From a virus (Duplodnaviria; Caudoviricetes): a stretch of DNA of 64,000 bases. Below the pieces are notes generated by a model. That model had not been told where the DNA came from and did not search any database. It saw only the letters and a list, made by a program, of their open reading frames with translations. Below are positions 1 to 45,683 of the stretch, piece after piece; the first letter of the stretch is position 1; each line of letters starts with the position of its first letter. Position numbers and translations under genes: made by a program. The stretch lies in the IMG/VR virus record IMGVR_UViG_3300025021_000154, positions 25,087 through 89,086 of that record. One strand, 5' to 3'.

Positions 1-1107
1 GAGCTGGTCTGCGTCAACCCGGTTTCGGTCAAGGTCAAATACGCCCAGGGCGAGCTGATCGAGGCCCGGCAATTTCCCGAGGACACACCCGGCGGCGGCG
101 ACTCCATCCCGCTGCCCGTCGAGCAGGTGGTCCACCTCAAATGGGACGCTCCGGCCTTTTCGCCCCGGGGCAATTCTCTCGTGCTTCCCGCCTTTCAGGC
201 CATCGAACTGCTACGCGACTACCGCCGGGCCGAACAGGCCATCGCCAAGCGCTGGGCCACGCCGTTCCGCCTGCTCAAGGTGGGCGGCGCGTTCGGGCAA
301 AAGATGGTGATGCCGGACCAGCGGATGCTCGAACAGGTTCGCGACATGGTCAACAAGATGGACATGAAAAGTGGCCTGGTGGTGCCGTTCTACGTCAATG
401 TCGAAACTCATGGCACCGACGGCCAGGTTCTCAATGTCGAGGACAAGGTCAAGGAGGTGAAGGAAGACGTCGTGGTGGCCCTGGGACTGTCGCGCTCGCT
501 GGTGACCGGTGATGGCCCGAATTTCGCCACCGCCTCGGTAAGCATGCAGAAGATGATGGTCATGATCCGCGAGATCAAACAGGCCGCACGCAAGCTCCTC
601 GACTGGGTGTTCGACGACTGGATGGAGCTGCGCGGCCAGGGCGACAAAACTCTCCAGTTCATCTTCAACGACCTCGACCCCAGCGACGCGGTCGATTTCA
701 AGAAACTCCTCATCGAACTCTACGACCGCAAGCTCATCAGCCGTTCCAGCCTCCAGCTCAAGATGGACTTGGACCCGGACATCGAGACCGCCAATCGCGA
801 AACCGAGAGTAAGAAGATCGACCTGATGGACGAAAAGCAGGTGAAGCCCGTGGTGGATATGGTTGTCTCGGGCATCCTGAGTGTGCCTCGCGCCAGAAAG
901 ATGCTCGGGATTCCTGCCGAGGACAACGAGACTTCAGCAGAGGCCGCGCTCGTCTGGTCAGGAGATCTGGAATCCACCGGCGATGCGGCCGTGTGCGACG
1001 AGTGCAGCCATTTCGACACGGCCACCAACCACTGCCGGGTCCACAACAGCGAGCGCACCTTCGACGCCCCGGCCTGTCGTTTCATCGACCGCCGGGAGCC
1101 CCGCTGA
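1..1107 (+). CDS. Phage portal protein (5' truncated by window edge) with Cys-rich C-terminal tail
   Basis: Frame is open from base 1 (ELVCVNPVSVKVKY...VVHLKWDAP). It lies directly upstream of MuF and the head genes, and has portal-like segments (SPRGNSLVLPAF, LGLSRSLVTGDGPNFATA). Confidence 0.8.
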   Translation, partial: ELVCVNPVSVKVKYAQGELIEARQFPEDTPGGGDSIPLPVEQVVHLKWDAPAFSPRGNSLVLPAFQAIELLRDYRRAEQAIAKRWATPFRLLKVGGAFGQKMVMPDQRMLEQVRDMVNKMDMKSGLVVPFYVNVETHGTDGQVLNVEDKVKEVKEDVVVALGLSRSLVTGDGPNFATASVSMQKMMVMIREIKQAARKLLDWVFDDWMELRGQGDKTLQFIFNDLDPSDAVDFKKLLIELYDRKLISRSSLQLKMDLDPDIETANRETESKKIDLMDEKQVKPVVDMVVSGILSVPRARKMLGIPAEDNETSAEAALVWSGDLESTGDAAVCDECSHFDTATNHCRVHNSERTFDAPACRFIDRREPR

Positions 1108-4100
1108 TGTCATCGGACCTCAAGCAGCGCATCCAGGCGGCTACTCTGAAGAGCCTGACGGCCCGCAACCTCTACAACGACCAGATCACGGCCCAGCTCA
1201 CCCAGGCGCTGAAACAGGCTGAGGACGAGGTCGCCCGCGCCATCCTCCAGTACCGCTCCCTCGGCTCGCTGCCGGACAACAAGCTCGCCGCCCTCAAGGG
1301 GCTGGAAAAGCTCCAGCTCGAACTCGACGACACCATGAAGCGGCTCAAGCGGGAGCAGACCCTGGTTTATCGCAAGACGACCAAGGACTCCTTCAAGCTC
1401 GGCATCCAACAGGGAATCGGAGAGTTCGCCGACGCGGCGCTGCCGTTCTATGCCGACTTGAAACCCGAAGGCATCGATAAGCTGGCCACCAAGGTCTTCA
1501 CCATCGTCGACACCAGTGCCCTCGACTTCATGGCGCAATACAACCTCACGCTCGCCGGTGACGTCCATCGCGAGCTCTCAGACGGCATCAAGCGCACCAT
1601 CCTGAACGGCATCGCCACGGGCAAGGGAGCCGACGATATCGTCCGGGACATGGGCAAGGTGATCATCGACAAGGATTCCTTCCGCCAGGCCGGAAGCCGG
1701 GTGTTCAGCAAGGCCCAGTACCGCATGGAGATGATCGCCCGCACCGAGGTCCTCCGCGCCCACAACATGGGCAGGCTCAAGTTCCACGAGCGGGTCGGCA
1801 TCCAGAAGCTGGAATGGCTGGCTATGGAAGACGAGCGCATGTGCCCGGTCTGTGGCGGCCTGGACGGCAAGACCTTTCCCATCGACAAGTTCCCCCAGCA
1901 ACCCGCGCATCCGCATTGCCGCTGCACCAACGTCGTGGCCTGGCCGATGACCGTCTGCGGCAGCGAGATGGTTGCCAAGGCCGCCGCCCAGGCATCGCAG
2001 GGGGACGCCTGCATTCTCCCGCCCCACGTGCTGGAAGGCATGGCCGATGCCCAGGCCAAGGAGAACGCCAAGCTCAAGAGCGCCTTTGAAAATGGCGACA
2101 TCACCGAGCTCGGCTCGTTGACGGTCAAACAGCTCCAGACCCTGGCGAAACAGAACGGCGTGGCCATCGCCCGGACCAAGGCCGATTTCATCAAGCTGCT
2201 CGATCTGGCCGAGCCGGGAATCGATCATGGTGACCTGGCCGGAGCGGCGCTCAGCGCCAAGCTCAAGGAACACAAGATCGGCCTGCTGCGGAGCAAGGAC
2301 GAACTGATCGAGTTGCTCGGACTGAAGCAGGCGGAACTCAAACAGGCCAAGTTGCTCGCCGCTCAGATGGCGAAGATTCCGCCCGCCGAGGGGCTGGAGG
2401 GCATGACCGCCCAGCAGCTCAAGGAGATGGCGAAGGAGAACAGCATCTCCCTCAACATGACCAAGCAGGAGACCATCGAGCTGCTCGACAAGCTGGAGCC
2501 CGGCGTGGACCACAGCGGACTGATGGGCAAGGAACTCGCGGCAGCCAAGCAGAAGCACGGTATCGGCATTCTCAAGAACAAACAGCAGCTCGTCGAGGCG
2601 CTGCAGAAGAAGGCCGGTACCGACATGGCCGAGTCCGTCAAGCAAAAGGCGGTCTCTGACGCCAAGCAGAAGCTGATCCAGAAACAGAAAACGGCCCTCG
2701 AAGACGCCGCAAAGGCAGTGGTCGTTCCCGACTCGCCGACAGGCTACAAGGATTTCCTCGACACGATTGCCAAGGCGGAACAGGCGGTTTCCGTCGGCAC
2801 CGATCTGCCCCAGGAGATGCTTGCGGCCCACAGCAAGGAAATCGCCTTCAAGAAACAGCTCTTCCAGGACCAGATCGGCAAGCTGAAATCGACCGAGCTC
2901 AAGACACTCGCTAAGGAGACCAAGGTCCAGTATTGGCAATGGGCCAACAAAGACGAGCTGACCACGCTCTTTACAGAGACCGACCCGGGGAAAATCAAGG
3001 CGGTTCAGGCGAGCATCGACGCCAAGCATGCCGCCTGGGCCGAAAAACATGGCGGCAAGAAGAAAGCAGCGCAAGCCAAGCCCATCACTCCGAAAAAGGA
3101 GCCGCCGAGTCCGGTAAAGCCGTCCGAGGCCAAGATCGGCAAGAAAGGTGCGGAGTTCTCAGACGCCGATTCTGCATGGCAGCAAAAGGGACTGCCGTCA
3201 AAATTCAAGAAATCCGGCAAGGCCGCTGTCGGCGGCGCACATGAAAAGGAGTTCTGGACCGACGAGAACGGCGACAAATGGCTGTTCAAACCCAATGGCC
3301 GCAAGGACGATGAGTTCATCGCCTTTGGAGAGGAGGCCGCCTACAAGATCGGCCGTCTGATCGATCCCCACGCCATCGAGGTCCGGACCATCCAGTTGAA
3401 CGGCCGCATCGGTTCCATCCAGAAATGGCGCACCGATCTGCGGGACGACTTCGATTTCCGCAACATCCTGCCTCAGGATCTGACCACCATCGAACTGGAA
3501 CAGATCCAGCGCGAGCACGTGGTCGACTGGCTGATCGCCAACCACGACGGGCATTCCAAGCAGTTCATCCGTGCCAGGGACGGTCGCGTCCACGGCATCG
3601 ACAAAGGCCAGGCTTTCAAGTTCCTGGGACAGGACAAACTCTCGCTCGATTACCACCCCAACGGGGCGTGCGGTGAGGAAGAGCCGTTTTACAACAAGGT
3701 CTTCCGGGCGGCCAAGGAAGGGAAGGTGCGGGTCGATCCGAACGCGACGCTTCGCTACATCCACGAAGTCGAAAAGATCGCCGACGAGGATTATCTCGGT
3801 CTGCTGCGGCCCTACGCCGAGGGCCGGTTCGCCAAGGACCCGGCCGGGCTGAGGCATTTTTACGATCTGGCCCTGGAACGAAAGCACAATCTCCGGCGGG
3901 ACTTCGAGGCTTATTACGCCGATGTGCTGGGGGATCGTGGATTCCGTTTCGACAAGCTGACCGCCGCCACCGGCAAGAAAAAGCTGCTCTCCTCCGCCGA
4001 GGAAGCCCTGGTCGAGGAAGCCCGCAAACTCGGCTGGCAAGGCAAGACATTGCCCTTCGACAGCGGCGACGTGGAGGATCAGAACGCGCTGATTTTCACC

Positions 4101-5678
4101 GAAACCTTCAAAGGGAAAAAGCGCACCGTGGTCAAGATGAAGATCCGGCCGGACACCGACCGCCGCATCGACGAGCTGCTGCGCAAGTACGTGCAGACCA
4201 CTGCCGGAGAAAAGGGGCAACCGCTAAACGAAGACAACTTTTTCGAGACCGTTCTGGACGCCGTCAAGAACGTCAATTTCCACGTCGGTGACGGCAAGTA
4301 CAACCGGACCAAGATCGACAAGGCCCTGCGCCTGCGCAAGAAACTCGAGGCCCTGCAAAAAAGCGCCGATCCCAAGGTCAAAGAAATGGCGGACCACTAT
4401 CTGAAATGGGTCAAGGAGATCGAGGAGTCCGTCGATTGGGACCGGGCCACCAACGGTGTTTTCGAGCAGTACCTGCCCAAGCTCGACGCACAGAAACCCA
4501 AGGAGAAACCGCCGTTCAAGGTGGAACGCGGCAAGGTGACCCACGCCAAGCGTAAGATCGGTTCCGGCACCATCAGCGTCGAGGCCGACGACGTCGACAA
4601 CCGGACCCTGTTCAATCACAACTCCCGCATGCAGGACGGGCATCAGTACACCGTGACTTTCGAGGACGGCACCCGAGTCCGCTATCGGCCTTGGACTGAC
4701 ACCAACCTTTACGCCCAGCGCGGCGAGCTGGAAATGATCCTGGATGGCGACACCACCCCCGGACGGGTCGAGGCCATGTTGGAAAAGCTCGAACAGCTCG
4801 GGATCGATACCCGGGTGGCCACGGCGGAAAACGCCGAACAGATGTATCTGGAGAAGCTCGCCTACATCCGCAAGACCGACAAGAGCGCCGACTACAAACG
4901 GCTGCAGAAATCCCTCGACGACCGCAACGCCACCACCCCCGAGCGGGTCCAGGCCCTGCGCGGCTATTGGCAAAAGGAATTTGGCGTCCAGGACATAACC
5001 CAGCTTTCCGGATACAACCCGCTGGGCGAATACCAGGCAGGTTTTCTGGACCGCGACGCCAAGGGCGGGTACCGGCACCAGTTCCGATTCGATATCACCG
5101 AGGAAGATCTTGAAAAACAGATGAAAGGCTATTCGCTGGTCCACGACTTGACCAACGGCGAGAGCATGTCCGGCTTCATCGACTCGATCATGGAGAACAA
5201 CGGAGCCATGGTCAGCACGGTCGAGAAGATGCGCATGGGTGTGGCTCCGGGTGGAATGTCCCCGGTGGCCGACATGCAGACCGGCGGCGCGAGCTATTTT
5301 TTCACCCGGATCAAGAAACAACCGGTCAGCGATGCTTCACCGGCGCTCTACTTCAAGAAACAGATGCTGCGGCGCATGGACGCCATCAGCTACGACCATG
5401 ACGCCTACGGCAAGGTGATAGACGACTACGTGCAGCGCAACCGGGGGGCCAGCATCGACGACTGGAAGCGGTTCTCGCAACGCCATGGCAACGAGACCAT
5501 CTTCAAATACTCGGTGACGCTGTTGGACAACATCGAGTTCGTCGTGGCCCGCAGCGACAACGAACGCCGGGAGATCATCCAGACTTTCACCCGGCGCGGC
5601 ATCAAGAAACTATCTGACGGGCGCAAGGTGGAGGACATCGTCCATACCCCGCAAAGCTGGAGCAAACGCAAACAATGA
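1107..5678 (+). CDS. MuF (Phage_Mu_F/SPP1 gp7-like) minor head protein, 1523 aa, with SAP/HeH-like repeats, HipA/PI3K-like kinase domain and candidate ADP-ribosyltransferase C-terminal domain
   Basis: ATG overlaps the portal stop (TGATG at 1105-1109). MuF signature IARTE...EWLAMEDERMCPVC...HPHCRC. Kinase motifs KWLFKP, DWLIANHDGHSKQF, IDKGQAF. C-terminal H...SYFFTR...NETIFK pattern. Confidence 0.85.
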   Translation: MSSDLKQRIQAATLKSLTARNLYNDQITAQLTQALKQAEDEVARAILQYRSLGSLPDNKLAALKGLEKLQLELDDTMKRLKREQTLVYRKTTKDSFKLGIQQGIGEFADAALPFYADLKPEGIDKLATKVFTIVDTSALDFMAQYNLTLAGDVHRELSDGIKRTILNGIATGKGADDIVRDMGKVIIDKDSFRQAGSRVFSKAQYRMEMIARTEVLRAHNMGRLKFHERVGIQKLEWLAMEDERMCPVCGGLDGKTFPIDKFPQQPAHPHCRCTNVVAWPMTVCGSEMVAKAAAQASQGDACILPPHVLEGMADAQAKENAKLKSAFENGDITELGSLTVKQLQTLAKQNGVAIARTKADFIKLLDLAEPGIDHGDLAGAALSAKLKEHKIGLLRSKDELIELLGLKQAELKQAKLLAAQMAKIPPAEGLEGMTAQQLKEMAKENSISLNMTKQETIELLDKLEPGVDHSGLMGKELAAAKQKHGIGILKNKQQLVEALQKKAGTDMAESVKQKAVSDAKQKLIQKQKTALEDAAKAVVVPDSPTGYKDFLDTIAKAEQAVSVGTDLPQEMLAAHSKEIAFKKQLFQDQIGKLKSTELKTLAKETKVQYWQWANKDELTTLFTETDPGKIKAVQASIDAKHAAWAEKHGGKKKAAQAKPITPKKEPPSPVKPSEAKIGKKGAEFSDADSAWQQKGLPSKFKKSGKAAVGGAHEKEFWTDENGDKWLFKPNGRKDDEFIAFGEEAAYKIGRLIDPHAIEVRTIQLNGRIGSIQKWRTDLRDDFDFRNILPQDLTTIELEQIQREHVVDWLIANHDGHSKQFIRARDGRVHGIDKGQAFKFLGQDKLSLDYHPNGACGEEEPFYNKVFRAAKEGKVRVDPNATLRYIHEVEKIADEDYLGLLRPYAEGRFAKDPAGLRHFYDLALERKHNLRRDFEAYYADVLGDRGFRFDKLTAATGKKKLLSSAEEALVEEARKLGWQGKTLPFDSGDVEDQNALIFTETFKGKKRTVVKMKIRPDTDRRIDELLRKYVQTTAGEKGQPLNEDNFFETVLDAVKNVNFHVGDGKYNRTKIDKALRLRKKLEALQKSADPKVKEMADHYLKWVKEIEESVDWDRATNGVFEQYLPKLDAQKPKEKPPFKVERGKVTHAKRKIGSGTISVEADDVDNRTLFNHNSRMQDGHQYTVTFEDGTRVRYRPWTDTNLYAQRGELEMILDGDTTPGRVEAMLEKLEQLGIDTRVATAENAEQMYLEKLAYIRKTDKSADYKRLQKSLDDRNATTPERVQALRGYWQKEFGVQDITQLSGYNPLGEYQAGFLDRDAKGGYRHQFRFDITEEDLEKQMKGYSLVHDLTNGESMSGFIDSIMENNGAMVSTVEKMRMGVAPGGMSPVADMQTGGASYFFTRIKKQPVSDASPALYFKKQMLRRMDAISYDHDAYGKVIDDYVQRNRGASIDDWKRFSQRHGNETIFKYSVTLLDNIEFVVARSDNERREIIQTFTRRGIKKLSDGRKVEDIVHTPQSWSKRKQ

Positions 5679-6187
5679 CCATGAAGGACTTTATCGAACA
5701 GGAGAAAGGGCGGCTGCAGGAAGCGCTGCACTGGTTCAACAGCCGGGGCAGCCGCATGACTGTCAGGGAATCCGGGGATCTCTTTCTGGATACCCTGGTG
5801 GGCAGCTTCACCGTCACCCGGATCGGCCCCCATTTCGATTCCGCTGGCAACCACCTGCGCACCGATTTCTGGCTGTTGTGGAAGGCGCTGGGCTACGACG
5901 AGGGCTTTCAGCACGCCCACACCGTCAAGGTCGTCGATGTCAGGATCGAAGACACCCTGACGGCCGAACATGACGGCAAGGAGGTCGAAGGCTGGCTGAT
6001 TGTCGATCTGACCGACGACCTGGGCCGGGTTCACCATGTCGAAATGATCGAGCCCGTTTCCGAACCCGAACTCGCGGCGGACTGGCAAAGATGGATCGCC
6101 TACCGGCAGAAAAACGCCGAGAGATTCCGCCGGATCGACGACCAGCTTCTGGCCGAGCATCTCAGAATTGCGGAGGATTGGTCATGA
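5675..6187 (+). CDS. Hypothetical protein, 170 aa; candidate immunity/antitoxin for the MuF effector
   Basis: ATGA overlap with the MuF stop. Small and acidic, no recognised family. Role inferred from position only. Confidence 0.6.
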   Translation: MTMKDFIEQEKGRLQEALHWFNSRGSRMTVRESGDLFLDTLVGSFTVTRIGPHFDSAGNHLRTDFWLLWKALGYDEGFQHAHTVKVVDVRIEDTLTAEHDGKEVEGWLIVDLTDDLGRVHHVEMIEPVSEPELAADWQRWIAYRQKNAERFRRIDDQLLAEHLRIAEDWS

Positions 6188-6537
6188 AACTGCGCTACAT
6201 GATCGACTCGATATTGGTCGACCGGCGAGCCTCCGTTCCAGAATACGTGCCCGTGGGTGTATGGGTTCAGGGGCCGGGTCCCGGCCTGGATGTGGAGATG
6301 TACTACCTCGACCGGGGACCGGATGGGCTGGTCGACCGCAAGGACGAGGCCGCCTGGGTGGTCAACCGTCTGGTCGAGGCCGGGGCCACTTCGCTTCCGG
6401 CGGATTTTCTCGAATACCACCGGCTGTCCCGCTCTCCCTACGACGGGGTCTTTTCGGAGATTGCCGAGATCGACGAATACCCCTCCCTCGACGCCTGCGG
6501 CAAAGCCGTTCTGGCCCGGCTGAACAACGCCATCTGA
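6184..6537 (+). CDS. Hypothetical protein, 117 aa; second candidate immunity protein
   Basis: ATGA overlap at 6184-6187 (MKLRYMIDSILVDRR...). Followed immediately by the repeated promoter-like motif. Confidence 0.6.
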   Translation: MKLRYMIDSILVDRRASVPEYVPVGVWVQGPGPGLDVEMYYLDRGPDGLVDRKDEAAWVVNRLVEAGATSLPADFLEYHRLSRSPYDGVFSEIAEIDEYPSLDACGKAVLARLNNAI

Positions 6538-6552
6538 AATTCGCCGTCACCC

Positions 6553-6586
6553 TCCGACACATCGCCGACGCTTCCGGTAAGTAACC
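6553..6586 (+). promoter_or_regulatory. Conserved motif copy 1 (TCCGACAC-N10-CTTCCGGTAAGTAA), putative late promoter
   Basis: Same two-block motif with identical spacing at 6553, 11945, 20384 and 27360, each in an intergenic gap. Confidence 0.7.
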
Positions 6587-6640
6587 GCTGAACGCTCCCC
6601 GCAGATCGCGGAGAGCCCAGCAAATTAACCGGAGACGTTG

Positions 6641-9034
6641 ATGGAACTGTTCGCCACAGACCTGGAAAGGCTGGCGTTTCTACTGGAGGCCGATGCGGCG
6701 CTGACCTGCGATCCTGACGAGCTCGGGACGGAGGCCGCCGATCAGTCCGCTCCTGAAGAGCTTCCTCCCGAGAAGCGCCCCAAGTACATCACCAACTACA
6801 TCGGTAGTAAGCAGAAACTCGTTGACTGGATCTGGAAGCATACCCCCGAGGGCGTTGGCACCGTGCTCGACGCCTTCTCGGGGTCTGCGGTCGTGGCCTA
6901 CATGTACAAGACCAAGGGCCTCCAGGTCATCGCCAACGACCGGCTGCGCTACTGCCACCACGCCGCCAAGGCGATTATCGAGAACAACTCGGTTCGCCTG
7001 AGCGAGGACGAAATCGAGGCGCTCCTGGCCGACAACGCCAAGGCTGGCAGCTTCGTTCAGGACAATTTCAAGGGGATCTTTTTTGCCAAGGGCGTCCATG
7101 CGCTGATCGATACGATCCGCGCCAACTGCGACAAACTCTCCGGCATCAAAAAAGACATCGCCCTGTTTGGCCTGGGCAAGACCTGCATGAGCGGCAAAGG
7201 TGGTTTCGGTCATTTTTCATCCTCAACCGACTACGGTCGACGCAAGGACACGCCAGAGGAATTCAAAGACCGTTTGCGCAAGAACCTGCAACGCATCAAT
7301 GCGCTGGTCTTCGACAACGGCAAGGAGAACAAGGCCCACCGCCAAGACATCAACGATCTGCTGCCCAAGGCCAAGGCGGATCTGGCCTATTTCGACCCGC
7401 CTTACGCCACCGAATTTTCCACCACCAATTACGAGCGAGCCTACCACTTCGTGGAGGGGCTCATGACCTATTGGGACGGCCTCGAGATCAAGGCCGACAC
7501 CAAGGTCAAGTATTACGAGACCGACCACAAGACGGTCACCAAGGGTAATGCCAGCGAGTTTTTCCAGACCTTTCTCGGCAATGCCAAGCACATCCGACAC
7601 TGGCTGATCTCCTACCGCGATCACGCTTATCCGAATGAGCAGGAGATGAAGAAAATCATCAGTTCATTCGGCAAGCAAAGCCAGATGAAATCGAAAGATC
7701 ACCATTACGCGATCACCTCCAGGCACGGAGATGCCTCCAACGCCAAGGAACGGCTGTTCGTCTGCATCCCTGGCTCAACAGCCAAAGCGGAGCAAGAGAT
7801 GAAACCGGTGCCGCTGGCCGCTGCTGCGAATTTCCACACCAGCATCCCCGTGGACATCCGGCTGGGCGACAGCGAACGCCTCACTGCCGAAGCCATGGAT
7901 GTCGGGGCACCGGGCGACCCCCAGTTCAGTTTCGTGCTCTGCCGTACCGGCACCAACAAGAACGGCGACCACTTCACCGCCGAGGAGTTGTCCGGTCGGC
8001 ACATGACGGCCGTGAACAAGAAGGTCGATCTGCAGCACTCTCAGGAGTTCAACGACATCGTCGGTGGCGTCGTCGCCGCCGATTATCTGGAAGACGACAA
8101 CGGCGGCCGGGTCGAATGCGTCGGCGAACTGTACGTCCACGACACACCGGCGGCTCGACTCGCCTACAAGCTGATGAAGCGCGGGATCATCTCCCAGGTT
8201 TCCATGGAATGTGATTACCAGGAAGGCGAATGCTCGGTCTGCCACAAGCGCTTTCAAAACAAGGCCGACTACTGCACGCACCTGCGCAAGTTCAAGGGCC
8301 GTGATTTCAACGGCCAACCCGTCTTCGAAATACTGCAGGGTGTCACTTTCACGGGACTGGGCCTGCTCGACCGCAAGGGTGCGGACGAGAACGCCCGAAT
8401 TCTGCAGGTGGCATCGATTCAGAGCCAACCCGACCAATCCCAACCCGAAGGAGATTCCACGATGGAAGACAAAACCAAACCCAACGATGACCCGGCCGCC
8501 AAGACTGAATCAGACGCGGCCAAGAAGAAACCGGCCCAGCAGGAAGGCGATCCTGCCCGTGTTTCCGACCTGGAAAAGGAAAACCGGCAGCTCAAGGCCC
8601 AGGTGGCCGAGTTGCAGAAACGCGTCCAGGAACTGGAAGCTGAGCAAAAAGCCGCAGCCTGCCGTTCCCGGGCGAAGAAGCTCCTGACCCGTCTGGAGAA
8701 GCAGGGACTCTCCTTTGCCTCCGAAGTGGACCGTGACGCCGAACTCAAACGCCTGGCGGAACTGTCCGACGAAGCCTTCACCGCCACCGAGGCGGCCTAC
8801 GAGCGTCTGCCCAAATCGGCCAAGGAAGAGAAACTCGCAGCCAATGACCAGGGGGACAAGCCCGCCGCCAAGGCATCGACGGAACAACCGCTGCGCAGCG
8901 ACGCCGGTGTCCGACCCCACGATGTGGACGACCGCAAGGTGTCGCTCGAAGACCGTCTGCGCGACGGGTTCATGGCCGCTTACCGCAACCGTGTCGGCGA
9001 GGACTCTCCCGAACACTCGGAAATCAACGCATAA
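6641..9034 (+). CDS. DNA adenine methyltransferase (D12/alpha class) - prohead protease - scaffold fusion, 797 aa
   Basis: NYIGSK, motif I DAFSGS, and DPPY (7394-7405). Then a protease-like region (NKNGDHF, VDLQHS, VSMEC, CSVC..YCTH, GLGLLDRKGAD) and a coiled-coil scaffold. Occupies the protease/scaffold slot before the decoration and capsid genes. RBS GGAG upstream; alternative TTG start at 6638. Confidence 0.85.
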   Translation: MELFATDLERLAFLLEADAALTCDPDELGTEAADQSAPEELPPEKRPKYITNYIGSKQKLVDWIWKHTPEGVGTVLDAFSGSAVVAYMYKTKGLQVIANDRLRYCHHAAKAIIENNSVRLSEDEIEALLADNAKAGSFVQDNFKGIFFAKGVHALIDTIRANCDKLSGIKKDIALFGLGKTCMSGKGGFGHFSSSTDYGRRKDTPEEFKDRLRKNLQRINALVFDNGKENKAHRQDINDLLPKAKADLAYFDPPYATEFSTTNYERAYHFVEGLMTYWDGLEIKADTKVKYYETDHKTVTKGNASEFFQTFLGNAKHIRHWLISYRDHAYPNEQEMKKIISSFGKQSQMKSKDHHYAITSRHGDASNAKERLFVCIPGSTAKAEQEMKPVPLAAAANFHTSIPVDIRLGDSERLTAEAMDVGAPGDPQFSFVLCRTGTNKNGDHFTAEELSGRHMTAVNKKVDLQHSQEFNDIVGGVVAADYLEDDNGGRVECVGELYVHDTPAARLAYKLMKRGIISQVSMECDYQEGECSVCHKRFQNKADYCTHLRKFKGRDFNGQPVFEILQGVTFTGLGLLDRKGADENARILQVASIQSQPDQSQPEGDSTMEDKTKPNDDPAAKTESDAAKKKPAQQEGDPARVSDLEKENRQLKAQVAELQKRVQELEAEQKAAACRSRAKKLLTRLEKQGLSFASEVDRDAELKRLAELSDEAFTATEAAYERLPKSAKEEKLAANDQGDKPAAKASTEQPLRSDAGVRPHDVDDRKVSLEDRLRDGFMAAYRNRVGEDSPEHSEINA
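8462..9034 (+). CDS. Putative nested in-frame scaffold protein (internal start), 190 aa
   Basis: AAGGAG at 8448-8453, 8 nt before an in-frame ATG (MEDKTKPND...). Charged coiled-coil sequence follows. Confidence 0.55.
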   Translation: MEDKTKPNDDPAAKTESDAAKKKPAQQEGDPARVSDLEKENRQLKAQVAELQKRVQELEAEQKAAACRSRAKKLLTRLEKQGLSFASEVDRDAELKRLAELSDEAFTATEAAYERLPKSAKEEKLAANDQGDKPAAKASTEQPLRSDAGVRPHDVDDRKVSLEDRLRDGFMAAYRNRVGEDSPEHSEINA

Positions 9035-9046
9035 GGAGGAAACACC

Positions 9047-9409
9047 ATGTCATTTATCAATCCGTGTCACCGCAGCCTCGCCTATGGCGACGGCCACATC
9101 CAGGGCGACGGCCAGCTCGGCCAGGTAGTCCGCGTGGTCGGCAACGACCTGTTCGCCGTCAACACTGACCCCACCAAACGCTCCTTCGGCATCCTGATCA
9201 AGGACTACGCCGGTGGCGAGATGCCCGGCATCTACTGCGACGGCGGCGTTTACGAGACCGATGTCTTCGAAGGGACTATCGTCGCAGGGGATGACCTGAA
9301 AGTCTCCGCCAACGGTCGACTGACCAACGGTATCGCTGCGGGAGAACGCCAGGTCGCCCATGCCATCTCCGTACAGAGCGGCATTCTCAAATTCCGCCTG
9401 TTCGTCTAA
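9047..9409 (+). CDS. Head decoration / capsid cement protein
   Basis: 120 aa between scaffold and capsid, strong AAGGAGG RBS. GD.LKVSANGRL pattern typical of beta-tulip decoration proteins. Confidence 0.6.
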   Translation: MSFINPCHRSLAYGDGHIQGDGQLGQVVRVVGNDLFAVNTDPTKRSFGILIKDYAGGEMPGIYCDGGVYETDVFEGTIVAGDDLKVSANGRLTNGIAAGERQVAHAISVQSGILKFRLFV

Positions 9410-9427
9410 TCCAAGGAGCCAACGCAC

Positions 9428-10291
9428 ATGAAAACCAATCAGTTGAAGATTCATTCTCAGGAATACATGGAAACCATGGCGCGGCTCATGAGCGAGGCTC
9501 TCGAGTCGCCCGAAGGTATGCGGGCATTGGCCGCCGCCATTGCCGCGCCTATCGAACAGGAAATCAAGCGCAAGGAGATCTCCTCGCTGTTGCTCACCAA
9601 GCACACGCTGCCCAAGGGCGAACGCCCGGTCTACCAGAAAAAACCGACCGTCAAGGCCCACTGGATCAGCAAGGATGGCGACGCCCAGGAACAGGAGGTG
9701 GGCAAGGACGAGGTCGAGTTCCCCACCAACCGCATCCACTCCAATCCGATGGTGGATGTTTCCGTCCTCAAAAATGGCAACATCGGCACGCTGATGGACA
9801 TCCAGACCAGCGCCGCCGACGCCATTCGTAAGGAGATGGATCGGCGCACCATTTCGGTGCTGTCCTCGGCCATCCCGGCGTCCAACATCATCGAGGTCGC
9901 CGGTGACGTGCTCACCGAAGAGGCGCTAAACGAGGCCATCTCGATCATCGAGGACCTGGAGCTGTCGGTGAAGTACATCGTCATGCGCGGCCGCCGGTTC
10001 AACGACATGCGCGGTTGGAACCTCGATCCCCAGACCAAGCTCGAGCTGCGCCAGAAGGGTGTCATCAAGAACTACGGCACCGGCGGCATTCTGCTGACCG
10101 CCTCCATGCCGTTGGACGAGATCATCATCGTCCCGGATGAAGAGGTCGGCAAGATGCCGGTTCGCGAGAACCTGAAGACGGAGTCCATCGACCAGAAGAC
10201 CCGCTTCAAAACCGGCTGGCTGGTGTGGTCCGAGATCGGCCAGGGCATTACCCGCCCCGACATCATGGCCAAAATCAAACTGGTTCCGTAA
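9428..10291 (+). CDS. Major capsid protein (HK97 fold)
   Basis: 287 aa, position, AAGGAG RBS, capsid-like C-terminus (GWLVWSEIGQGITRP). Confidence 0.8.
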   Translation: MKTNQLKIHSQEYMETMARLMSEALESPEGMRALAAAIAAPIEQEIKRKEISSLLLTKHTLPKGERPVYQKKPTVKAHWISKDGDAQEQEVGKDEVEFPTNRIHSNPMVDVSVLKNGNIGTLMDIQTSAADAIRKEMDRRTISVLSSAIPASNIIEVAGDVLTEEALNEAISIIEDLELSVKYIVMRGRRFNDMRGWNLDPQTKLELRQKGVIKNYGTGGILLTASMPLDEIIIVPDEEVGKMPVRENLKTESIDQKTRFKTGWLVWSEIGQGITRPDIMAKIKLVP

Positions 10292-10309
10292 TCCGGGAGG
10301 TAACGTGAC

Positions 10310-10669
10310 ATGAATCGAATCAAGAACATCCGACCCGGTATCCTGGTCATTCCTGATGCCGGGCTGAAACTCAAGCCCGGACAGGTCGTCGAGGTGGAAC
10401 ATTTTACCAAACAAATCCAGGCTGCCCTGAAAAACGGACGCCTGGCCATGGCCGACAAACCGAAGCAGGAACCTGTCGTGAGTTCCGAGCCCAACCAGGA
10501 CGCGGAACCGGTGGATCTGAGCAAGCTCTCCGCCACCGACGCCATCTCCAAGGTCAACGAGGAGGCCAATCCCGAGACCCTCAAGGGCTACATGGAAACC
10601 GAAAAACGCCGCACGGTGATCGACGCGCTCAAGAGCCGTCTGGAGGGCATGCAAGGTGCTGCTGAGTGA
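10310..10669 (+). CDS. Phage hypothetical protein (post-capsid, helical C-terminal domain)
   Basis: GGAGG RBS; C-terminal ETEKRRTVIDALKSRL motif common in genes following capsid genes. Confidence 0.6.
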   Translation: MNRIKNIRPGILVIPDAGLKLKPGQVVEVEHFTKQIQAALKNGRLAMADKPKQEPVVSSEPNQDAEPVDLSKLSATDAISKVNEEANPETLKGYMETEKRRTVIDALKSRLEGMQGAAE

Positions 10670-11120
10670 TCTGATCGCCGACCTGCGGCTCGATCTTTCC
10701 GATCCGGGCGCATCTCTCTTCGAGGACCAGACTCTGGATAGATGCGTCCGGAAGGCCGTTTTTCGAGTCGGCCGCGATCTTGACCAAACGCTGACGGTAA
10801 CGGCCGGAGAGATCATCCCCGATCCCTCCGGAGAGGTTCGGGAGCTCTTGGTGATCATGGCACAGATCCACGCCTGCCAGGTCATGCGGTCGGCCACCGC
10901 CAACGCCTTTTCTTTTTCCAGCGGCGACAAGCGGGTGGACAAAACCGGCCAGCCTGGCCATTGGGCCAAGCTCGAGGCCGATCTGCTCGCGGACTACCGC
11001 CAGCGGCTCACCGAGTTGCGCCCGGCCACCCAGCTCGACCGGGAAGCCTACATCCTGACTCCGGGCGGCCTCACGCCGGTCATCTACGAACAAGGGATCG
11101 ACCTCGATGTTGTTGAATGA
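10656..11120 (+). CDS. Head-tail adaptor (connector) protein
   Basis: Position and size; overlaps neighbouring genes. Confidence 0.55.
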   Translation: MLLSDLIADLRLDLSDPGASLFEDQTLDRCVRKAVFRVGRDLDQTLTVTAGEIIPDPSGEVRELLVIMAQIHACQVMRSATANAFSFSSGDKRVDKTGQPGHWAKLEADLLADYRQRLTELRPATQLDREAYILTPGGLTPVIYEQGIDLDVVE

Positions 11121-11466
11121 CCGGGAACGCGCAGAAGCCGTGGCCGACGTCGCCCGGCTGATCCTCTCCTCGGGTCAGACCGCACGCATCCTGCGCGTAG
11201 TCCCCGGCGAGCGGCTCTACGGTACCGACGATGCCGATTACGCGGAAGTCTCTGTCATCCCCCTCGAACTGAACGAAACCCCGCCGGAGGAGCTGAGCGA
11301 CAAGATCGACGCGCTCGCCTGTGTCCTTCCGGATGCCGACGTTCATGGTGAAGACCGCCTGGCCGCAGACAGGGAAACCTATCGCATACAGAGCGTGGAA
11401 GAAGAACACTTCTTCGGGACCGTCACTCACAAGAACCTGCAACTGGTGAAGCTCAATGGGCGTTAG
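11107..11466 (+). CDS. Head closure / neck protein
   Basis: Position; DRL...YRIQSV motif typical of SPP1 gp16-like closure proteins. Confidence 0.55.
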   Translation: MLLNDRERAEAVADVARLILSSGQTARILRVVPGERLYGTDDADYAEVSVIPLELNETPPEELSDKIDALACVLPDADVHGEDRLAADRETYRIQSVEEEHFFGTVTHKNLQLVKLNGR

Positions 11467-11941
11467 GCGGACCGGTGATTGGGACAAGGCCCGCACCAAG
11501 CTGACCACCGGCATGGGGCCGCGCCTGGCCACGGCTCTGCGTCAAGCCACGATCCGCAACGCCCTTTTTCTGGTGCGTGAGATCCAGCGGGGGATTCGCT
11601 CCCAGGCCCCGGGAGGACAGGCTTTCGTGAAACTCGCCGAAAGCACCATCGAGCGCAAAGGCTCCAGCAAGGCGCTCATCGACACCGGCTTTCTCGTCAA
11701 CGCCATCACCCAGAAGATCATGGCCGACAAGGCGTTCGTCGGCCTGCTGCGCGGCACCGTCAACAAGGACGGGGAAGACATGGTGAACATCGGTGCCGTC
11801 ATGGAGTACGGGGCCACCATCAAACATCCGAACGGCGCGACCATCATCATCCCCGCCAGACCCTTTCTGCATCCGGTGATGGAGAAGTACCGCGAGCAGA
11901 TCCTCCAGAACTATCGCGAGGCGATCCGCTCCGCGCTTTGA
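11456..11941 (+). CDS. Phage virion morphogenesis / tail completion protein (Mu gpG-like)
   Basis: LAESTIERKGSSKALIDTGFL and IPARPFL motifs. Confidence 0.75.
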   Translation: MGVRRTGDWDKARTKLTTGMGPRLATALRQATIRNALFLVREIQRGIRSQAPGGQAFVKLAESTIERKGSSKALIDTGFLVNAITQKIMADKAFVGLLRGTVNKDGEDMVNIGAVMEYGATIKHPNGATIIIPARPFLHPVMEKYREQILQNYREAIRSAL

Positions 11942-11944
11942 GCC

Positions 11945-11978
11945 TCCGACACATCGCCAGCGCTTCCGGTAAGTAACC
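11945..11978 (+). promoter_or_regulatory. Conserved motif copy 2, putative late promoter
   Basis: TCCGACAC atcgccagcg CTTCCGGTAAGTAACC, 3 nt after the stop at 11941. Confidence 0.7.
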
Positions 11979-12000
11979 AGGCAGAAAACGGAGGCGTCCC

Positions 12001-12549
12001 TTGAGCACGATACAGACCGTCACAGAAACACTGATCCGCCTGGCCAAGCAGGTCATCCACCCGGACACCGTGCTGGTGTTCCCGGATGACCTGTTCGAGG
12101 TCCAGCGCACCCCCAGCGTCATCCTCCAGGGGCCGAAGCTGACGGAAGACCGTTTTCGCCGCAGCCAGAGCCGCCTGTTCGAGAAGAATGTCGCGGAGCT
12201 GAGTTTCGAGGAGTGTCGATTTCCCCGGCTCTATCACCTCGATTTCGATCTGGTGGTGACCGTGGGCCGGGAGTCTGAGCTGCTGGAGTTTCACGAGTCG
12301 GTGTCGCGGTTTATCCAACTCCACCCGGTGATCGTCATCGCCGACCAGGGCAGCCTGAACCTCACGGAACTGGTTCCTCTGGGCGGTCTGGCCCGGGTGA
12401 ACCTCTCCAATCTCCGGCAGAGCTCCGGACGCATCCGCATCGAATCCTGCCCGGTGTACGACGGCGACCTGCGCGACGGTCAGCTGATCCGGGATCGGAC
12501 CTTCCAGTTTCACGGCGACGTGACAGAACAACGAACCATTCAACCGTAA
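12001..12549 (+). CDS. Tail terminator-like protein
   Basis: TTG start with GGAGG RBS; position before the sheath gene. Confidence 0.5.
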   Translation: MSTIQTVTETLIRLAKQVIHPDTVLVFPDDLFEVQRTPSVILQGPKLTEDRFRRSQSRLFEKNVAELSFEECRFPRLYHLDFDLVVTVGRESELLEFHESVSRFIQLHPVIVIADQGSLNLTELVPLGGLARVNLSNLRQSSGRIRIESCPVYDGDLRDGQLIRDRTFQFHGDVTEQRTIQP

Positions 12550-12561
12550 AGGAGAACAACC

Positions 12562-12819
12562 GTGATCGAAATCAGAAATCTGCAGTTTCAACCCCTGACG
12601 TTCAACCTCTCTGGCCAGGGAACCGTCCACCTCGGACCGCGAGAGCGCAAGAGCATCGCCCGCAAGGACCTCTCCGCCGAGATCCGGACAGCCGGAAAAC
12701 GCGGCCTGGTGCGTCTCACCGACCTGACCGGCGGCGCAACCCTGGAACCGGAAACGCTCACGGCGACCGAGGACGCCGGAACCGATGAGGCCAAGACCAC
12801 CAGCAAGCGGAGGAAATAA
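12562..12819 (+). CDS. Hypothetical protein, 85 aa
   Basis: GTG start with AAGGAG RBS; fills the gap before the sheath gene. Confidence 0.6.
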   Translation: MIEIRNLQFQPLTFNLSGQGTVHLGPRERKSIARKDLSAEIRTAGKRGLVRLTDLTGGATLEPETLTATEDAGTDEAKTTSKRRK

Positions 12820-12821
12820 CC

Positions 12822-14351
12822 ATGCCGACCTATCTATCGCCCGGGATTTACACCCGGGAAACGGACTTCAGTTTCTATGTGAAGCAGATCTCTACCTCGT
12901 CGGCCGCCATGGTCGGTGTGCCCGAGAAAGGCCCCATCAACAAGCCCGTGCTGGTGACGAGCTGGGAGCAGTTCATCAACCGTTTCGGCTCCTACATCAA
13001 CGAAAGCTATCTGGCCTACGCCGCCCGGGCGTTTTTCGATAACGGCGGCTCGGTTCTCTATGTCAACCGCATCGCCCATCTCACCGATCCCACCGACCGG
13101 GACACGCTGACGGCGCTCAAGTCTTCCATCGTCCTGCAGAATCGGGAGGCGACGCCCGCCGACGCTCTGCGGATCGAAGCCGTGAACGAAGGCGTCTGGG
13201 GCGACCGGCTCTCCGTCTCCATCGAGGACGGCTCCCTTAATCCGGCCAACCATTTCAACCTGGTGGTCCGGCACAAAGGTGATGTGGTCGAGGTGTTCAA
13301 GGATCTGAGCATGGACGAAACCCAGCCCAACCATGTGGAGCTGGCGATCAACGACCGCTCGGATTTCATCCTGGTGCAGGATCTGGCCGCCACGTCGGGA
13401 ACGCCCGGCGACCGTCCGGCATTGGGCGTGTTCACGCTCACCGGCGGCGACAACGGGCTGACCGATCTGACCGATGCAGACTTCATCGGCGATCCCTCGC
13501 AGCATACCGGCCTCTATGGCTTTGACGAGATCGACGCCCTGAACCTGCTGATGGTCCCCGGCGTCACTACGGTGCCGGTGATCAACGCCGGAATCGCCTA
13601 TGCCGAGGGGCGCAAGGATCTGCTGTTCATCGCCGACACGCCCATGCACCTGGAGCCGCTCGAAGCGGTCGACTTTCGCAAGGGCCAAGGGATGTACAGC
13701 CACGCGGCCTTCAACTCCTCCTACGCGGCGCTCTACTACCCATGGCTGGAGATCAGCGATCCGGTCAACTCGCGCAAGAAGCTGGTGCCGCCCTGCGGCG
13801 CGGTGGCGGGATGCATCGCCCGCAGCGACCAGAAGACCAACGTCTGGAACGCGCCCGCCGGTATCGAGCGGGGCCGCATCTTCAACACGCTCTCCCTGGC
13901 CTACAAGACCAGCCGTGGCGAGCGCGATGTGCTCTATCCGGAAGGGGTTAACGTCATCGCCGTGTTCCCCGACACTGGCATCAACATCTGGGGGCAGAAG
14001 ACACTGCAAAGCCAGCCCTCGGCCGTGGACCGCATCAATGTCCGCCGCCTGATGATGTTCATGGAGGAAGCGATCTCGGAATCATCCCGCTTCGTGGTGT
14101 TCGAACCGAACCATCCCCAGACCTGGCGTGCCCTCGGCCGCCTGATCAACCCCTTCCTGCAGGACATCAAGGACAAAGGCGGTCTCTACGACTTTGCCTT
14201 CCAGTGCGACGAGGAGACCAACACCCCGGCAGTCATCGACCGCAACGAAATGGTGGCCCGCGTGTTCGTCAAGCCGACCAAGACGGCGGAGTTCATCGAG
14301 CTGAACTTCATCCTGACCAGCACCGGCGCTGACTTCAAAGAAATCATCTAA
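12822..14351 (+). CDS. Contractile tail sheath protein
   Basis: MPTYLSPGIYTRE N-terminus; YYPW, PPCGAVAG, WNAPAG, INVRRL, FEPN, KPTKTAEFI motifs. Confidence 0.97.
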   Translation: MPTYLSPGIYTRETDFSFYVKQISTSSAAMVGVPEKGPINKPVLVTSWEQFINRFGSYINESYLAYAARAFFDNGGSVLYVNRIAHLTDPTDRDTLTALKSSIVLQNREATPADALRIEAVNEGVWGDRLSVSIEDGSLNPANHFNLVVRHKGDVVEVFKDLSMDETQPNHVELAINDRSDFILVQDLAATSGTPGDRPALGVFTLTGGDNGLTDLTDADFIGDPSQHTGLYGFDEIDALNLLMVPGVTTVPVINAGIAYAEGRKDLLFIADTPMHLEPLEAVDFRKGQGMYSHAAFNSSYAALYYPWLEISDPVNSRKKLVPPCGAVAGCIARSDQKTNVWNAPAGIERGRIFNTLSLAYKTSRGERDVLYPEGVNVIAVFPDTGINIWGQKTLQSQPSAVDRINVRRLMMFMEEAISESSRFVVFEPNHPQTWRALGRLINPFLQDIKDKGGLYDFAFQCDEETNTPAVIDRNEMVARVFVKPTKTAEFIELNFILTSTGADFKEII

Positions 14352-14366
14352 CGGGAGAACACGGCT

Positions 14367-14828
14367 ATGAGAAGCGGAAACATGCCCAAGAGCCTTTACC
14401 AGAACTGGCAGTTCGCCATCGAGGTAAACGGCTTCGACGTGGCCCTGTTCCACAAGGGACAGGAGCCTAAAACCGAATTCGAGGAAGTTGCCTTCGCCCC
14501 GGCTGGTTCGATGTTCGACCAGAAGGTGGCGGGGCGGGTGAAGTTCGAGGACATAACCCTCGAAAAAGGAAACCTGCAGGACGGCTCTGATGAGGCGGCC
14601 CGCGAGTGGATCAAGAAACAGGTGGACGTGAACGCTGTCACCGGTGGTCTTCCGGCCGACTACATGCGAGACATCGACGTTGTCCGTTACGACCGCACCG
14701 GTAATGAGACCCGCCGCTGGACCCTGCACGGTGCCTGGGTCAAGGCGCTCGAATACGACGAGCTCGAAGGCGGCAACACCGAAAACACCATCGAGAAGCT
14801 GACCATCTGCTTCCAATACTGGACCTAA
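14367..14828 (+). CDS. Tail tube protein (T4 gp19-like)
   Basis: Follows the sheath; KFEDITLEKG, RRWTLHGAW, IEKLTI motifs. Confidence 0.92.
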   Translation: MRSGNMPKSLYQNWQFAIEVNGFDVALFHKGQEPKTEFEEVAFAPAGSMFDQKVAGRVKFEDITLEKGNLQDGSDEAAREWIKKQVDVNAVTGGLPADYMRDIDVVRYDRTGNETRRWTLHGAWVKALEYDELEGGNTENTIEKLTICFQYWT

Positions 14829-14843
14829 CCCGGAGGATCGACC

Positions 14844-45679: not shown

Positions 45680-45683
45680 ATCA

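What the first reader, a model, noticed from the sequence alone, without database searches (positions are those of the whole stretch)
6641..9034. DNA adenine methyltransferase fused in frame to the prohead protease and scaffold
Seen: one uninterrupted 797-aa ORF. It contains a complete alpha-class N6-adenine MTase (NYIGSK ~6790, DAFSGS, DPPY 7394), then an assemblin/S78-like protease region (~7920-8420: LQHS, VSMEC, Zn-finger CSVC..YCTH, GAD) and a coiled-coil scaffold, in the usual protease slot before decoration and capsid genes. Known: protease-scaffold fusions end up inside the procapsid; phage MTases are normally stand-alone genes. Inference: the MTase is delivered into the prohead, where it could methylate DNA during or after packaging, or be ejected to protect the genome on entry. 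This would be a late, capsid-coupled anti-restriction strategy.
Basis: partly seen in the sequence, partly recalled or inferred. Interest (0 to 1): 0.87.

Follow-up and report, generated by a model that had tools for sequence, protein, structure and literature searches.

The report
Methyltransferase fused to head protease-scaffold
One phage head-assembly gene joins an intact DNA adenine methyltransferase to the capsid protease and scaffold and also makes a scaffold-only protein from a conserved internal start, so the methyltransferase is probably carried into new capsids; whether it stays there and protects the DNA is untested.

Summary
Window 6641-9034 (+) is one 797-aa ORF with three parts. 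The first is a Dam-type (Pfam D12) N6-adenine methyltransferase under strong purifying selection. The second is a prohead protease with the T4 gp21 / herpes assemblin fold, with its catalytic His and Ser in place. The third is a coiled-coil scaffold. The gene sits in the lambda-like slot: portal, MuF, this gene, a 120-aa gene, then the major capsid protein.

It is not an assembly artefact. More than 200 independent loci from many bacterial phyla carry the same fusion at 42-98% identity, and some carry two methyltransferases.

An in-frame start at M608 (window 8462) with AGGAG 8 nt upstream is kept in 124 of 127 distinct homologs. This marks a nested 190-aa scaffold gene, as in lambda C/Nu3. 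No such start is conserved at the methyltransferase/protease junction, so the protease is normally made only with the methyltransferase attached.

Loading into the procapsid is therefore a strong inference. Retention in the virion, co-ejection and anti-restriction are not shown. One relative (L170) keeps the same methyltransferase as a separate gene upstream of terL, which supports a cytoplasmic late-methylation rival.

Earlier follow-ups in this scan reached the same reading on other DNA. I found no paper describing the design.

The parts
6631..6643 (+). Shine-Dalgarno GGAG, 6-nt spacer and ATG start of the full-length product
6641..9034 (+). Full-length ORF, 797 aa: methyltransferase, protease, scaffold
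   Evidence: full-length match to phrog_27806
6659..6697 (+). N-terminal helix (aa 7-19, DLERLAFLLEADA). It is conserved in the 6-7 fused representatives aligned and absent from the 12 stand-alone methyltransferase relatives. Role unknown.
6794..7777 (+). D12/Dam-type N6-adenine DNA methyltransferase domain (aa 52-379), with motifs NYIGSK, DAFSGS and DPPY
   Evidence: Pfam E 5.6e-26; model pLDDT 84 with Foldseek hits to E. coli Dam, DpnM and T4 Dam; invariant D252 P253 P254 Y255; dN/dS about 0.04
7778..7915 (+). Disordered linker (aa 380-425) between methyltransferase and protease
   Evidence: pLDDT below 50 in both models; high dS and dN
7789..7801 (+). GGAG, 6-nt spacer and ATG (M387). This possible extra start for a 411-aa protease-scaffold occurs only in this phage's own subclade.
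7826..7852 (+). Conserved linear motif ANFHTSIPV (aa 396-404) in the linker. It could be a processing or docking site. It is also present near the N-terminus of the unfused protease of L170.
7916..8419 (+). Prohead protease core (aa 426-593) with the T4 gp21 / herpes assemblin fold. Candidate catalytic residues are H466 (8036-8038) and S521 (8201-8203).
   Evidence: pLDDT above 95; 5jbl_A Z 11.2, 1vzv_A Z 10.7; Foldseek; gp21 H85 and S140 align to H466 and S521
8210..8281 (+). C2H2-like zinc-finger insert in the protease (C524, C531, C534, C545, H547)
   Evidence: invariant Cys columns; profile matches to C2H2 fingers
8449..8464 (+). AGGAG, 8-nt spacer and ATG (M608): the start of the nested scaffold gene
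   Evidence: conserved in 124 of 127 distinct homologs; the SD glycine codon is GGA in 124 of 124 against 10.9% of all Gly codons; also present in unfused L170
8462..9034 (+). Nested in-frame scaffold gene, 190 aa, sharing its C-terminus with the full-length product
8552..8701 (+). Long coiled-coil helix of the scaffold (aa 638-687)
8945..8998 (+). Conserved C-terminal helix (LEDRLRDGFMAAYRNRV, aa 769-786), the candidate capsid-protein docking element
   Evidence: invariant G169, M171, A173, Y174, R177 of the 190-aa product
1..1107 (+). Portal protein (3' part), context
993..5678 (+). Giant MuF-domain head protein (up to 1561 aa), context: a second likely head-borne multi-domain protein
9047..9409 (+). 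Conserved 120-aa gene in the position of lambda gpD
   Evidence: the L170 counterpart hits phrog_673
9428..10291 (+). Major capsid protein, 287 aa, with no delta domain
   Evidence: phrog_2522 E 2.7e-97; 59-90% identical across the family

Best explanation
This is the phage's single head-maturation gene, built like lambda C/Nu3 or herpesvirus UL26/UL26.5 but with an enzyme added in front. It makes two main products. The 797-aa full-length protein is methyltransferase, disordered linker, gp21/assemblin-type serine protease, then scaffold. The abundant 190-aa scaffold is translated from the conserved internal start at M608. The full-length protein ends in the same scaffold sequence, so it co-assembles with free scaffold and capsid protein. 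That places the protease, and with it the methyltransferase, inside the procapsid, probably in tens of copies. The protease then cuts scaffold and linkers. I infer that the folded methyltransferase is left as an internal head protein and leaves with the DNA at the next infection. There it would methylate the incoming genome with host SAM and blunt restriction. Before assembly, the same precursor can already methylate progeny DNA in the cytoplasm. Shown here: the architecture, its conservation, the nested start, purifying selection, and the lack of a separate protease start in most relatives. Inferred from known nested protease-scaffold systems: loading into the procapsid. Speculative: retention, ejection and anti-restriction.
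For: Domains: Pfam D12 E 5.6e-26; Dam-like fold; protease fold matches to T4 gp21 (Z 11.2) and VZV protease (Z 10.7), standing above unrelated hits at 6.7 or lower; gp21 H85 and S140 align with H466 and S521. The 89-kb record has no other prohead protease family and no other D12 methyltransferase. The fusion is open in all complete loci from 42 to 98% identity. The nested start is kept in 124 of 127 distinct ORFs although the encoded peptide varies across 39 variants, and the SD glycine codon is always GGA against 10.9% background. At the methyltransferase/protease junction only 20 of 127 have a start with an SD, and 29 have no start codon at all. Methyltransferase dN/dS is about 0.04, like the protease at 0.01-0.04. 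An N-terminal helix is found in the fused representatives aligned and in none of the stand-alone ones. Forms with two methyltransferases of about 1290 aa are common. The gene order portal, MuF, this gene, 120-aa gene, capsid protein is conserved. Precedent for a head-borne, co-ejected anti-restriction methyltransferase: P1 DarB at about 45 copies (PMC12810830; PMC5512222).
Against: There is no direct evidence that methyltransferase peptides are in procapsids or virions. The protease may degrade the methyltransferase. A relative (L170) has the orthologous methyltransferase (46% identity over aa 51-384) as a separate gene upstream of terL and an unfused protease-scaffold, so capsid linkage is not needed for the enzyme's basic role. 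In this window's own subclade, GGAG plus ATG at M387 could yield protease-scaffold without the methyltransferase. Inside a packed head there is no SAM supply. GATC is not unusual in the phage (observed/expected 0.93), which says nothing either way about the target.
Confidence: 0.5

Rival explanations
1. The methyltransferase is a late cytoplasmic enzyme only. As part of the soluble precursor it methylates replicated phage DNA before or during packaging. The fusion serves timing and dosage: it keeps the enzyme silent in the lysogen and expresses it with the head genes. Copies dragged into the procapsid are degraded or play no further role.
For: L170 has the orthologous methyltransferase as a free gene next to terS/terL, not linked to the protease. 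Methylation needs SAM, which is available in the cytoplasm. Phage methyltransferases normally act before packaging (established knowledge). Prohead proteases commonly destroy internal proteins (established knowledge for T4 gp21).
Against: If only timing mattered, a separate late gene would do. Yet the fusion is kept without a single split among about 150 complete loci of the fused clade, across 42-98% identity, and has been extended to two methyltransferases. A helix at the extreme N-terminus, seen in the fused representatives aligned and not in the stand-alone ones, suggests an added interaction.
Confidence: 0.3
2. The methyltransferase domain serves head assembly or packaging itself rather than defence. 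It could bind or mark DNA at the packaging start, as Dam methylation controls P1 pac cleavage, or act as an internal core or DNA-organising protein.
For: In both the fused and the split forms the gene lies in the packaging/head module. P1 pac regulation by Dam is established knowledge.
Against: A protein enclosed in the procapsid cannot reach pac sites on concatemers. The catalytic motifs are invariant and dN/dS is about 0.04, which fits an enzyme rather than a structural filler. No pac evidence was found here.
Confidence: 0.08
3. The fusion is an artefact: two genes joined by a sequencing error or read-through.
For: None found.
Against: The same open frame occurs in more than 200 independent assemblies, including complete chromosomes.
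Confidence: 0.01

Closest known systems
Nested protease/scaffold genes: lambda C/Nu3, Mu I/Z, herpesvirus UL26/UL26.5 (established knowledge)
   Same: The protease precursor ends in the scaffold sequence. An in-frame internal start gives abundant scaffold with the same C-terminus. The gene sits between portal and capsid protein, and here the order also matches lambda B, C/Nu3, D, E. The protease fold is that of herpes assemblin and T4 gp21.
   Different: A complete 380-aa DNA adenine methyltransferase (two in many relatives) is fused in front of the protease. Lambda C is an S49-type protease, not the assemblin fold. The protease here carries a C2H2-like zinc finger.
Phage P1 DarB and the Dar system (PMC5512222; PMC12810830)
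   Same: A DNA adenine methyltransferase that would be a head-internal protein, loaded during head morphogenesis, in a phage that also carries other large head-borne proteins. Dar proteins are co-ejected and protect DNA from restriction.
   Different: DarB is an EcoKI/TaqI-type methyltransferase fused to an SF2 helicase. It is about 2,000 aa and is loaded through DarA/Hdf, not by fusion to the protease. Here the enzyme is a D12/Dam type with no helicase, and virion presence is unproven.
T4 capsid-targeting of internal proteins (IPI-III, Alt) cleaved by gp21 (established knowledge; Alt in PMC5512222)
   Same: Cargo enters the prohead with the scaffold core, is trimmed by a gp21-type protease and is injected with the DNA.
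   Different: T4 uses a short N-terminal targeting peptide on separate proteins. Here the cargo is covalently part of the protease-scaffold precursor.
Polyvalent and MuF-fused head proteins (PMC5512222)
   Same: Multi-domain enzymes are attached to a head-incorporated module, and a giant MuF protein is encoded directly upstream.
   Different: The carrier is the protease-scaffold, not MuF or a portal-associated domain. I did not find this architecture in that survey.

Membership tests
D12-class (Dam-type, alpha) N6-adenine DNA methyltransferase, Pfam PF02086 | Profile score above the curated cut-off | tested here: met
   92.2 bits against a cut-off of 22, aa 53-328
D12-class (Dam-type, alpha) N6-adenine DNA methyltransferase, Pfam PF02086 | SAM-binding motif I and catalytic DPPY, in alpha order | tested here: met
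   DAFSGS aa 77-82 and DPPY aa 252-255; D77, G81 and D252-Y255 invariant in 20 sequences
D12-class (Dam-type, alpha) N6-adenine DNA methyltransferase, Pfam PF02086 | Dam-like fold | tested here: met
   Foldseek probability 1.00 to E. coli Dam, DpnM and T4 Dam, E 1e-7 to 4e-4
D12-class (Dam-type, alpha) N6-adenine DNA methyltransferase, Pfam PF02086 | m6A activity and target sequence | not testable with these tools
   Needs a methylome or an enzyme assay
Prohead serine proteases of the assemblin clan (T4 gp21 S77, HK97 gp4 S78, herpes S21) | Sequence-profile membership (Pfam S78) | tested here: not met
   17.2 bits and 19.4 bits, both below the cut-off of 21; no PDB hit by sequence profile
Prohead serine proteases of the assemblin clan (T4 gp21 S77, HK97 gp4 S78, herpes S21) | Assemblin/gp21 fold | tested here: met
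   5jbl_A Z 11.2, rmsd 2.4 over 126 aa; 1vzv_A Z 10.7; 8j3s_A Z 8.1; 1fl1_A Z 7.6
Prohead serine proteases of the assemblin clan (T4 gp21 S77, HK97 gp4 S78, herpes S21) | Catalytic His and Ser at equivalent positions | tested here: inconclusive
   hhalign places gp21 H85 on H466 and S140 on S521, but the alignment is weak (E 0.12). S521 is nearly invariant and the His is conserved in all the sequences I read at that column. That H85 and S140 are the catalytic residues of gp21 rests on my own knowledge.
Prohead serine proteases of the assemblin clan (T4 gp21 S77, HK97 gp4 S78, herpes S21) | Gene position between portal and major capsid protein; only protease in the phage | tested here: met
Nested protease/scaffold gene (lambda C/Nu3 type) | Conserved in-frame internal start with a ribosome-binding site at the scaffold boundary | tested here: met
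   124 of 127 distinct ORFs; GGA codon 124 of 124; also in unfused L170
Nested protease/scaffold gene (lambda C/Nu3 type) | Two protein products seen; scaffold binds the capsid protein | not testable with these tools
P1 DarB-type head-borne anti-restriction methyltransferase | EcoKI/TaqI-type methyltransferase fused to an SF2 helicase | tested here: not met
   D12 family, no helicase domain
P1 DarB-type head-borne anti-restriction methyltransferase | Present in virions and co-ejected; protects against restriction | not testable with these tools
   Needs proteomics and plating tests

The most novel reading that the evidence does not exclude
The methyltransferase (two of different specificity in many relatives) is a true virion cargo that pre-arms the genome on entry. 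This would help explain why near-identical copies of this temperate phage (92-96% DNA identity over 17 kb) sit in chromosomes labelled as different phyla: Thermodesulfobacteriota, Gammaproteobacteria, Verrucomicrobiota/Kiritimatiellota and Hydrogenedentota. That would make the protease-scaffold a general carrier for loading enzymes into capsids, linked to an exceptionally broad host range.
Probability: 0.15. Interest if true: 0.85.

Novelty: new variant of a known kind. Interest (0 to 1): 0.62.

Why it matters
If the methyltransferase is loaded and ejected, this is a simple, genetically compact route for putting an enzyme into a capsid: fuse it in front of the protease-scaffold. It would be an anti-restriction strategy distinct from P1 Dar and from T4 targeting peptides.

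It is also common. Public databases name hundreds of these proteins only "DNA adenine methylase", so the phage's protease and scaffold go unannotated.

The family's spread across phyla at over 90% DNA identity makes it a good system for asking what allows a temperate phage to cross host boundaries. The carrier principle could also be used to load foreign proteins into phage heads.

Tried and rejected
- **Phage genome collection.** Megablast found nothing. tblastn found only separate, distant methyltransferase or protease hits. No cultured phage with virion proteomics could therefore be used.
- **Structure by sequence.** PDB sequence searches gave no protease hit and no methyltransferase hit. 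Only fold comparison worked.
- **Alignment query on genomes.** The search for related loci with alignment A1 on genome contigs failed for lack of a conserved stretch. The single protein worked.
- **Tree of the protease-scaffold part**. It is poorly resolved, with 9 open forks and long branches, so I make no claim that the fusion arose once.
- **Junction motif as cargo-release site.** The motif (Phi-H-T-S) has a look-alike only at capsid protein aa 8-11. It also sits near the N-terminus of the unfused L170 protease, and the His is not invariant in capsid proteins. I keep this as a weak lead only.
- **Low synonymous divergence around the nested start.** dS is 0.04-0.11 against about 0.5 in flanking domains in the 93% clade. 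It is not seen in the 77% relative, so recombination cannot be excluded.
- **Other scans.** Promoter and terminator scans showed nothing above shuffles. The GATC count was unremarkable.
- **Literature.** Four searches found no description of this fusion. The library does not hold most subscription journals.
Full report
**1. The observation**

Window 6641-9034 (+) is an uninterrupted 797-aa frame. GGAG lies 6 nt before the ATG.

Pfam finds a D12-class N6-adenine methyltransferase at aa 53-328 (E 5.6e-26). It also gives a sub-threshold S78 prohead-protease match at aa 461-528 and coiled-coil matches near aa 640-690. PHROGs has a full-length family, phrog_27806, labelled only "DNA methyltransferase".

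The gene order is portal, giant MuF protein, two small ORFs, this gene, a 120-aa gene, the major capsid protein (phrog_2522), then neck. That is the lambda order B, C/Nu3, D, E. The window is the last 64 kb of an 89-kb IMG/VR record.

**2. Not an artefact**

More than 100 proteins of 800-802 aa at 93-97% identity come from independent assemblies, including complete chromosomes. A search of 50%-identity representatives finds full-length fusions down to 40% identity.

All complete loci among 80 viral contigs and 79 genome loci have the open fusion. They are either single forms of 780-850 aa or double forms of 1150-1340 aa with two D12 domains.

**3. The three parts**

*Methyltransferase.*
- The AlphaFold model has mean pLDDT 84.
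- Its best structural matches are E. coli Dam, DpnM and T4 Dam.
- The SAM and DPPY motifs are invariant across 20 fused and free relatives.
- dN/dS is about 0.04.
- So it is a working enzyme by every test available here. Its target is unknown, and GATC is not unusual in the phage.

*Protease.*
- Residues 426-593 are modelled at pLDDT above 95.
- They match T4 gp21 (Z 11.2, rmsd 2.4 over 126 aa), VZV (Z 10.7), HCMV (Z 8.1) and KSHV (Z 7.6) proteases. The next, unrelated hit scores 6.7. Foldseek gives the same families.
- A weak profile alignment puts gp21 H85 and S140 on H466 and S521, both conserved in the family.
- A C2H2-like zinc finger is inserted after the Ser.
- The 89-kb record has no other S78, S49 or ClpP match and no second D12 methyltransferase.

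*Scaffold.* There is a long helix at aa 638-687, further helices, and a strongly conserved C-terminal helix containing GFMAAY.

**4. Nested scaffold gene**

AGGAG lies 8 nt before the ATG at 8462 (M608). In 124 of 127 distinct homologous ORFs an AGGAG or AGGAGG lies 4-10 nt before an in-frame start at the same boundary. This holds although the encoded peptide differs across 39 variants. The glycine codon inside the SD is GGA in 124 of 124 cases, against 10.9% of all glycine codons in these genes. The unfused relative L170 has it too. This is a conserved start for a scaffold of about 190 aa, as in lambda Nu3, Mu Z or herpes UL26.5.

**5. No general start for the protease alone**

In the 33 codons before the protease, the 127 distinct ORFs divide as follows:

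| Start signal at the junction | ORFs |
|---|---|
| Start codon with an SD | 20 |
| ATG without an SD | 64 |
| Only GTG or TTG, no SD | 9 |
| No start codon at all | 29 |
| Junction motif not located | 5 |

Synonymous divergence in this linker is high. So in most of the family every protease molecule carries the methyltransferase.

This window's own subclade is an exception. It has GGAG, 6 nt, then ATG at 7799 (M387), the same geometry as the main start. A 411-aa protease-scaffold may therefore be made here as well.

**6. Features specific to the fusion**

An N-terminal helix (aa 7-19) is conserved in fused forms and absent from the free methyltransferases aligned.

The linker (aa 380-425) is disordered in both models. 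It holds a conserved motif, [AN]-[FIC]-H-T-S-[IFV]-P-V. The only similar string in the head proteins is at capsid protein aa 8-11. The motif also lies near the N-terminus of the unfused L170 protease. I therefore treat its reading as a release site as a weak lead.

**7. A split relative**

L170 encodes a free methyltransferase that is 46% identical over aa 51-384 and ends at the same domain boundary. It lies upstream of terL. Downstream come a portal-MuF fusion, an unfused protease-scaffold with its own GGAG-ATG and the nested start, a 119-aa gene and the capsid protein.

So the enzyme belongs to the late module in both designs, and the fusion is not required for its basic activity. A tree of the protease-scaffold part is too poorly resolved to say whether the fusion arose once.

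**8. Mechanism**

In known nested systems the shared scaffold sequence takes the protease into the procapsid. The same logic puts the methyltransferase inside the procapsid here. What happens next is inference. I favour retention as an internal protein and action on the DNA at the next entry. The precedent is P1 DarB, at about 45 copies and co-ejected.

The reasons are:
- the fusion is strictly kept over deep divergence;
- it has been doubled in many relatives;
- it has gained an N-terminal helix seen only in fused forms;
- it sits beside a giant MuF protein of the kind thought to be head-borne.

The main rival is late cytoplasmic methylation, with incidental and perhaps destructive encapsidation. 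L170 and the need for SAM support it. The confidences are 0.5 and 0.3.

**9. Comparison and novelty**

The nested protease-scaffold, the assemblin-fold protease and head-borne anti-restriction enzymes are all known. A D12 methyltransferase fused in front of the protease-scaffold is not described in the papers I could search. Databases label these proteins only as methylases.

Earlier follow-ups in this scan reached the same reading on other genomes. These are unchecked AI notes, not independent evidence.

- the codon-level test of the nested start;
- the count showing that a junction start is absent in most relatives;
- the helix specific to fused forms;
- the split relative L170;
- dN/dS by domain;
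- the DNA-level spread across phyla.

**10. Limits**

The capsid protein-scaffold complex, the contexts of the short representatives and read-level checks are therefore missing.

Noticed in passing
window 1-17030; L082, L084, L088, L092, L116 and others: The whole head module is 92-96% identical in DNA to prophage stretches in records labelled as very different phyla: Desulfosarcina alkanivorans chromosome, Desulfofustis, Desulforhopalus, Ectothiorhodospira shaposhnikovii, a Verrucomicrobiota MAG and a Hydrogenedentales MAG. One search also names Kiritimatiella glycovorans, Pasteurella multocida and Mangrovibacter phragmitis at 93-94% protein identity. This is an unusually wide spread for a near-identical temperate phage. 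MAG mis-binning cannot explain the complete chromosomes.
   Followed up: partly
window 38000-64000: GC drops from about 0.62 to about 0.54. The region encodes a defence island: BREX genes (BrxC 40540-44106, PglX-like methylase 45522-49247, PglZ 50499-52997, BrxL 53012-55081) with an AAA_21 ATPase gene (44103-45158) and a Shedu SduA gene (49240-50502) embedded, then SMC/SbcCD-like genes and a pPIWI-associated nuclease domain. It is either host flank next to the prophage end or phage-carried cargo.
   Followed up: partly
window 993-5678: A giant MuF-domain head protein of up to 1561 aa lies directly upstream (Pfam Phage_Mu_F at aa 198-312; phrog_6577 over aa 76-1402). It is a second likely head-borne multi-domain protein.
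   Followed up: no
L071, L075, L077, L079, L080, L126-L160 (for example L136:8001-10292): Double forms of about 1275-1300 aa have the order methyltransferase 1, a roughly 110-aa 'WxETxNEIRYRVRDP' domain, methyltransferase 2, protease, scaffold. Methyltransferase 1 is 74-78% identical to the window's enzyme, and the methyltransferase 2-protease-scaffold stretch about 50%. The 110-aa domain also precedes the protease in proteins without a methyltransferase. The ESM Atlas places it near N-terminal domains of XkdF/S78_2 phage proteases (a lead only). Desulfosarcina alkanivorans holds both a single and a double form.
   Followed up: partly
OZ252029.1 (L143, L144, L154, L156); CAXXHC01 (L121, L123-L125): Single genomes, a Bryobacterales MAG and a Myxococcota MAG, hold four copies of family members each.
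   Followed up: no
window 8210-8281: A C2H2-like zinc finger (C-x6-C-x2-C-x10-C-x-H) is inserted in the prohead protease just after the catalytic Ser. Its Cys residues are invariant in the family. I know of no such insert in gp21, HK97 gp4 or assemblin.
   Followed up: partly
window 8420-8551 and 6641-6793: Against the 93% clade, synonymous divergence falls to 0.04-0.11 around the nested start and 0.14-0.17 at the 5' end of the gene, against about 0.5-0.7 in the domains between. This fits constrained translation-initiation regions, but it is not seen in the 77% relative, so recombination is not excluded.
   Followed up: partly
window 9047-9409: A conserved 120-aa gene lies between the fusion and the capsid protein in all relatives (43-78% identity). 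It is in the position of lambda gpD. It has no family match here, but the L170 counterpart hits phrog_673 'head scaffolding protein' at E 8.6e-12.
   Followed up: no
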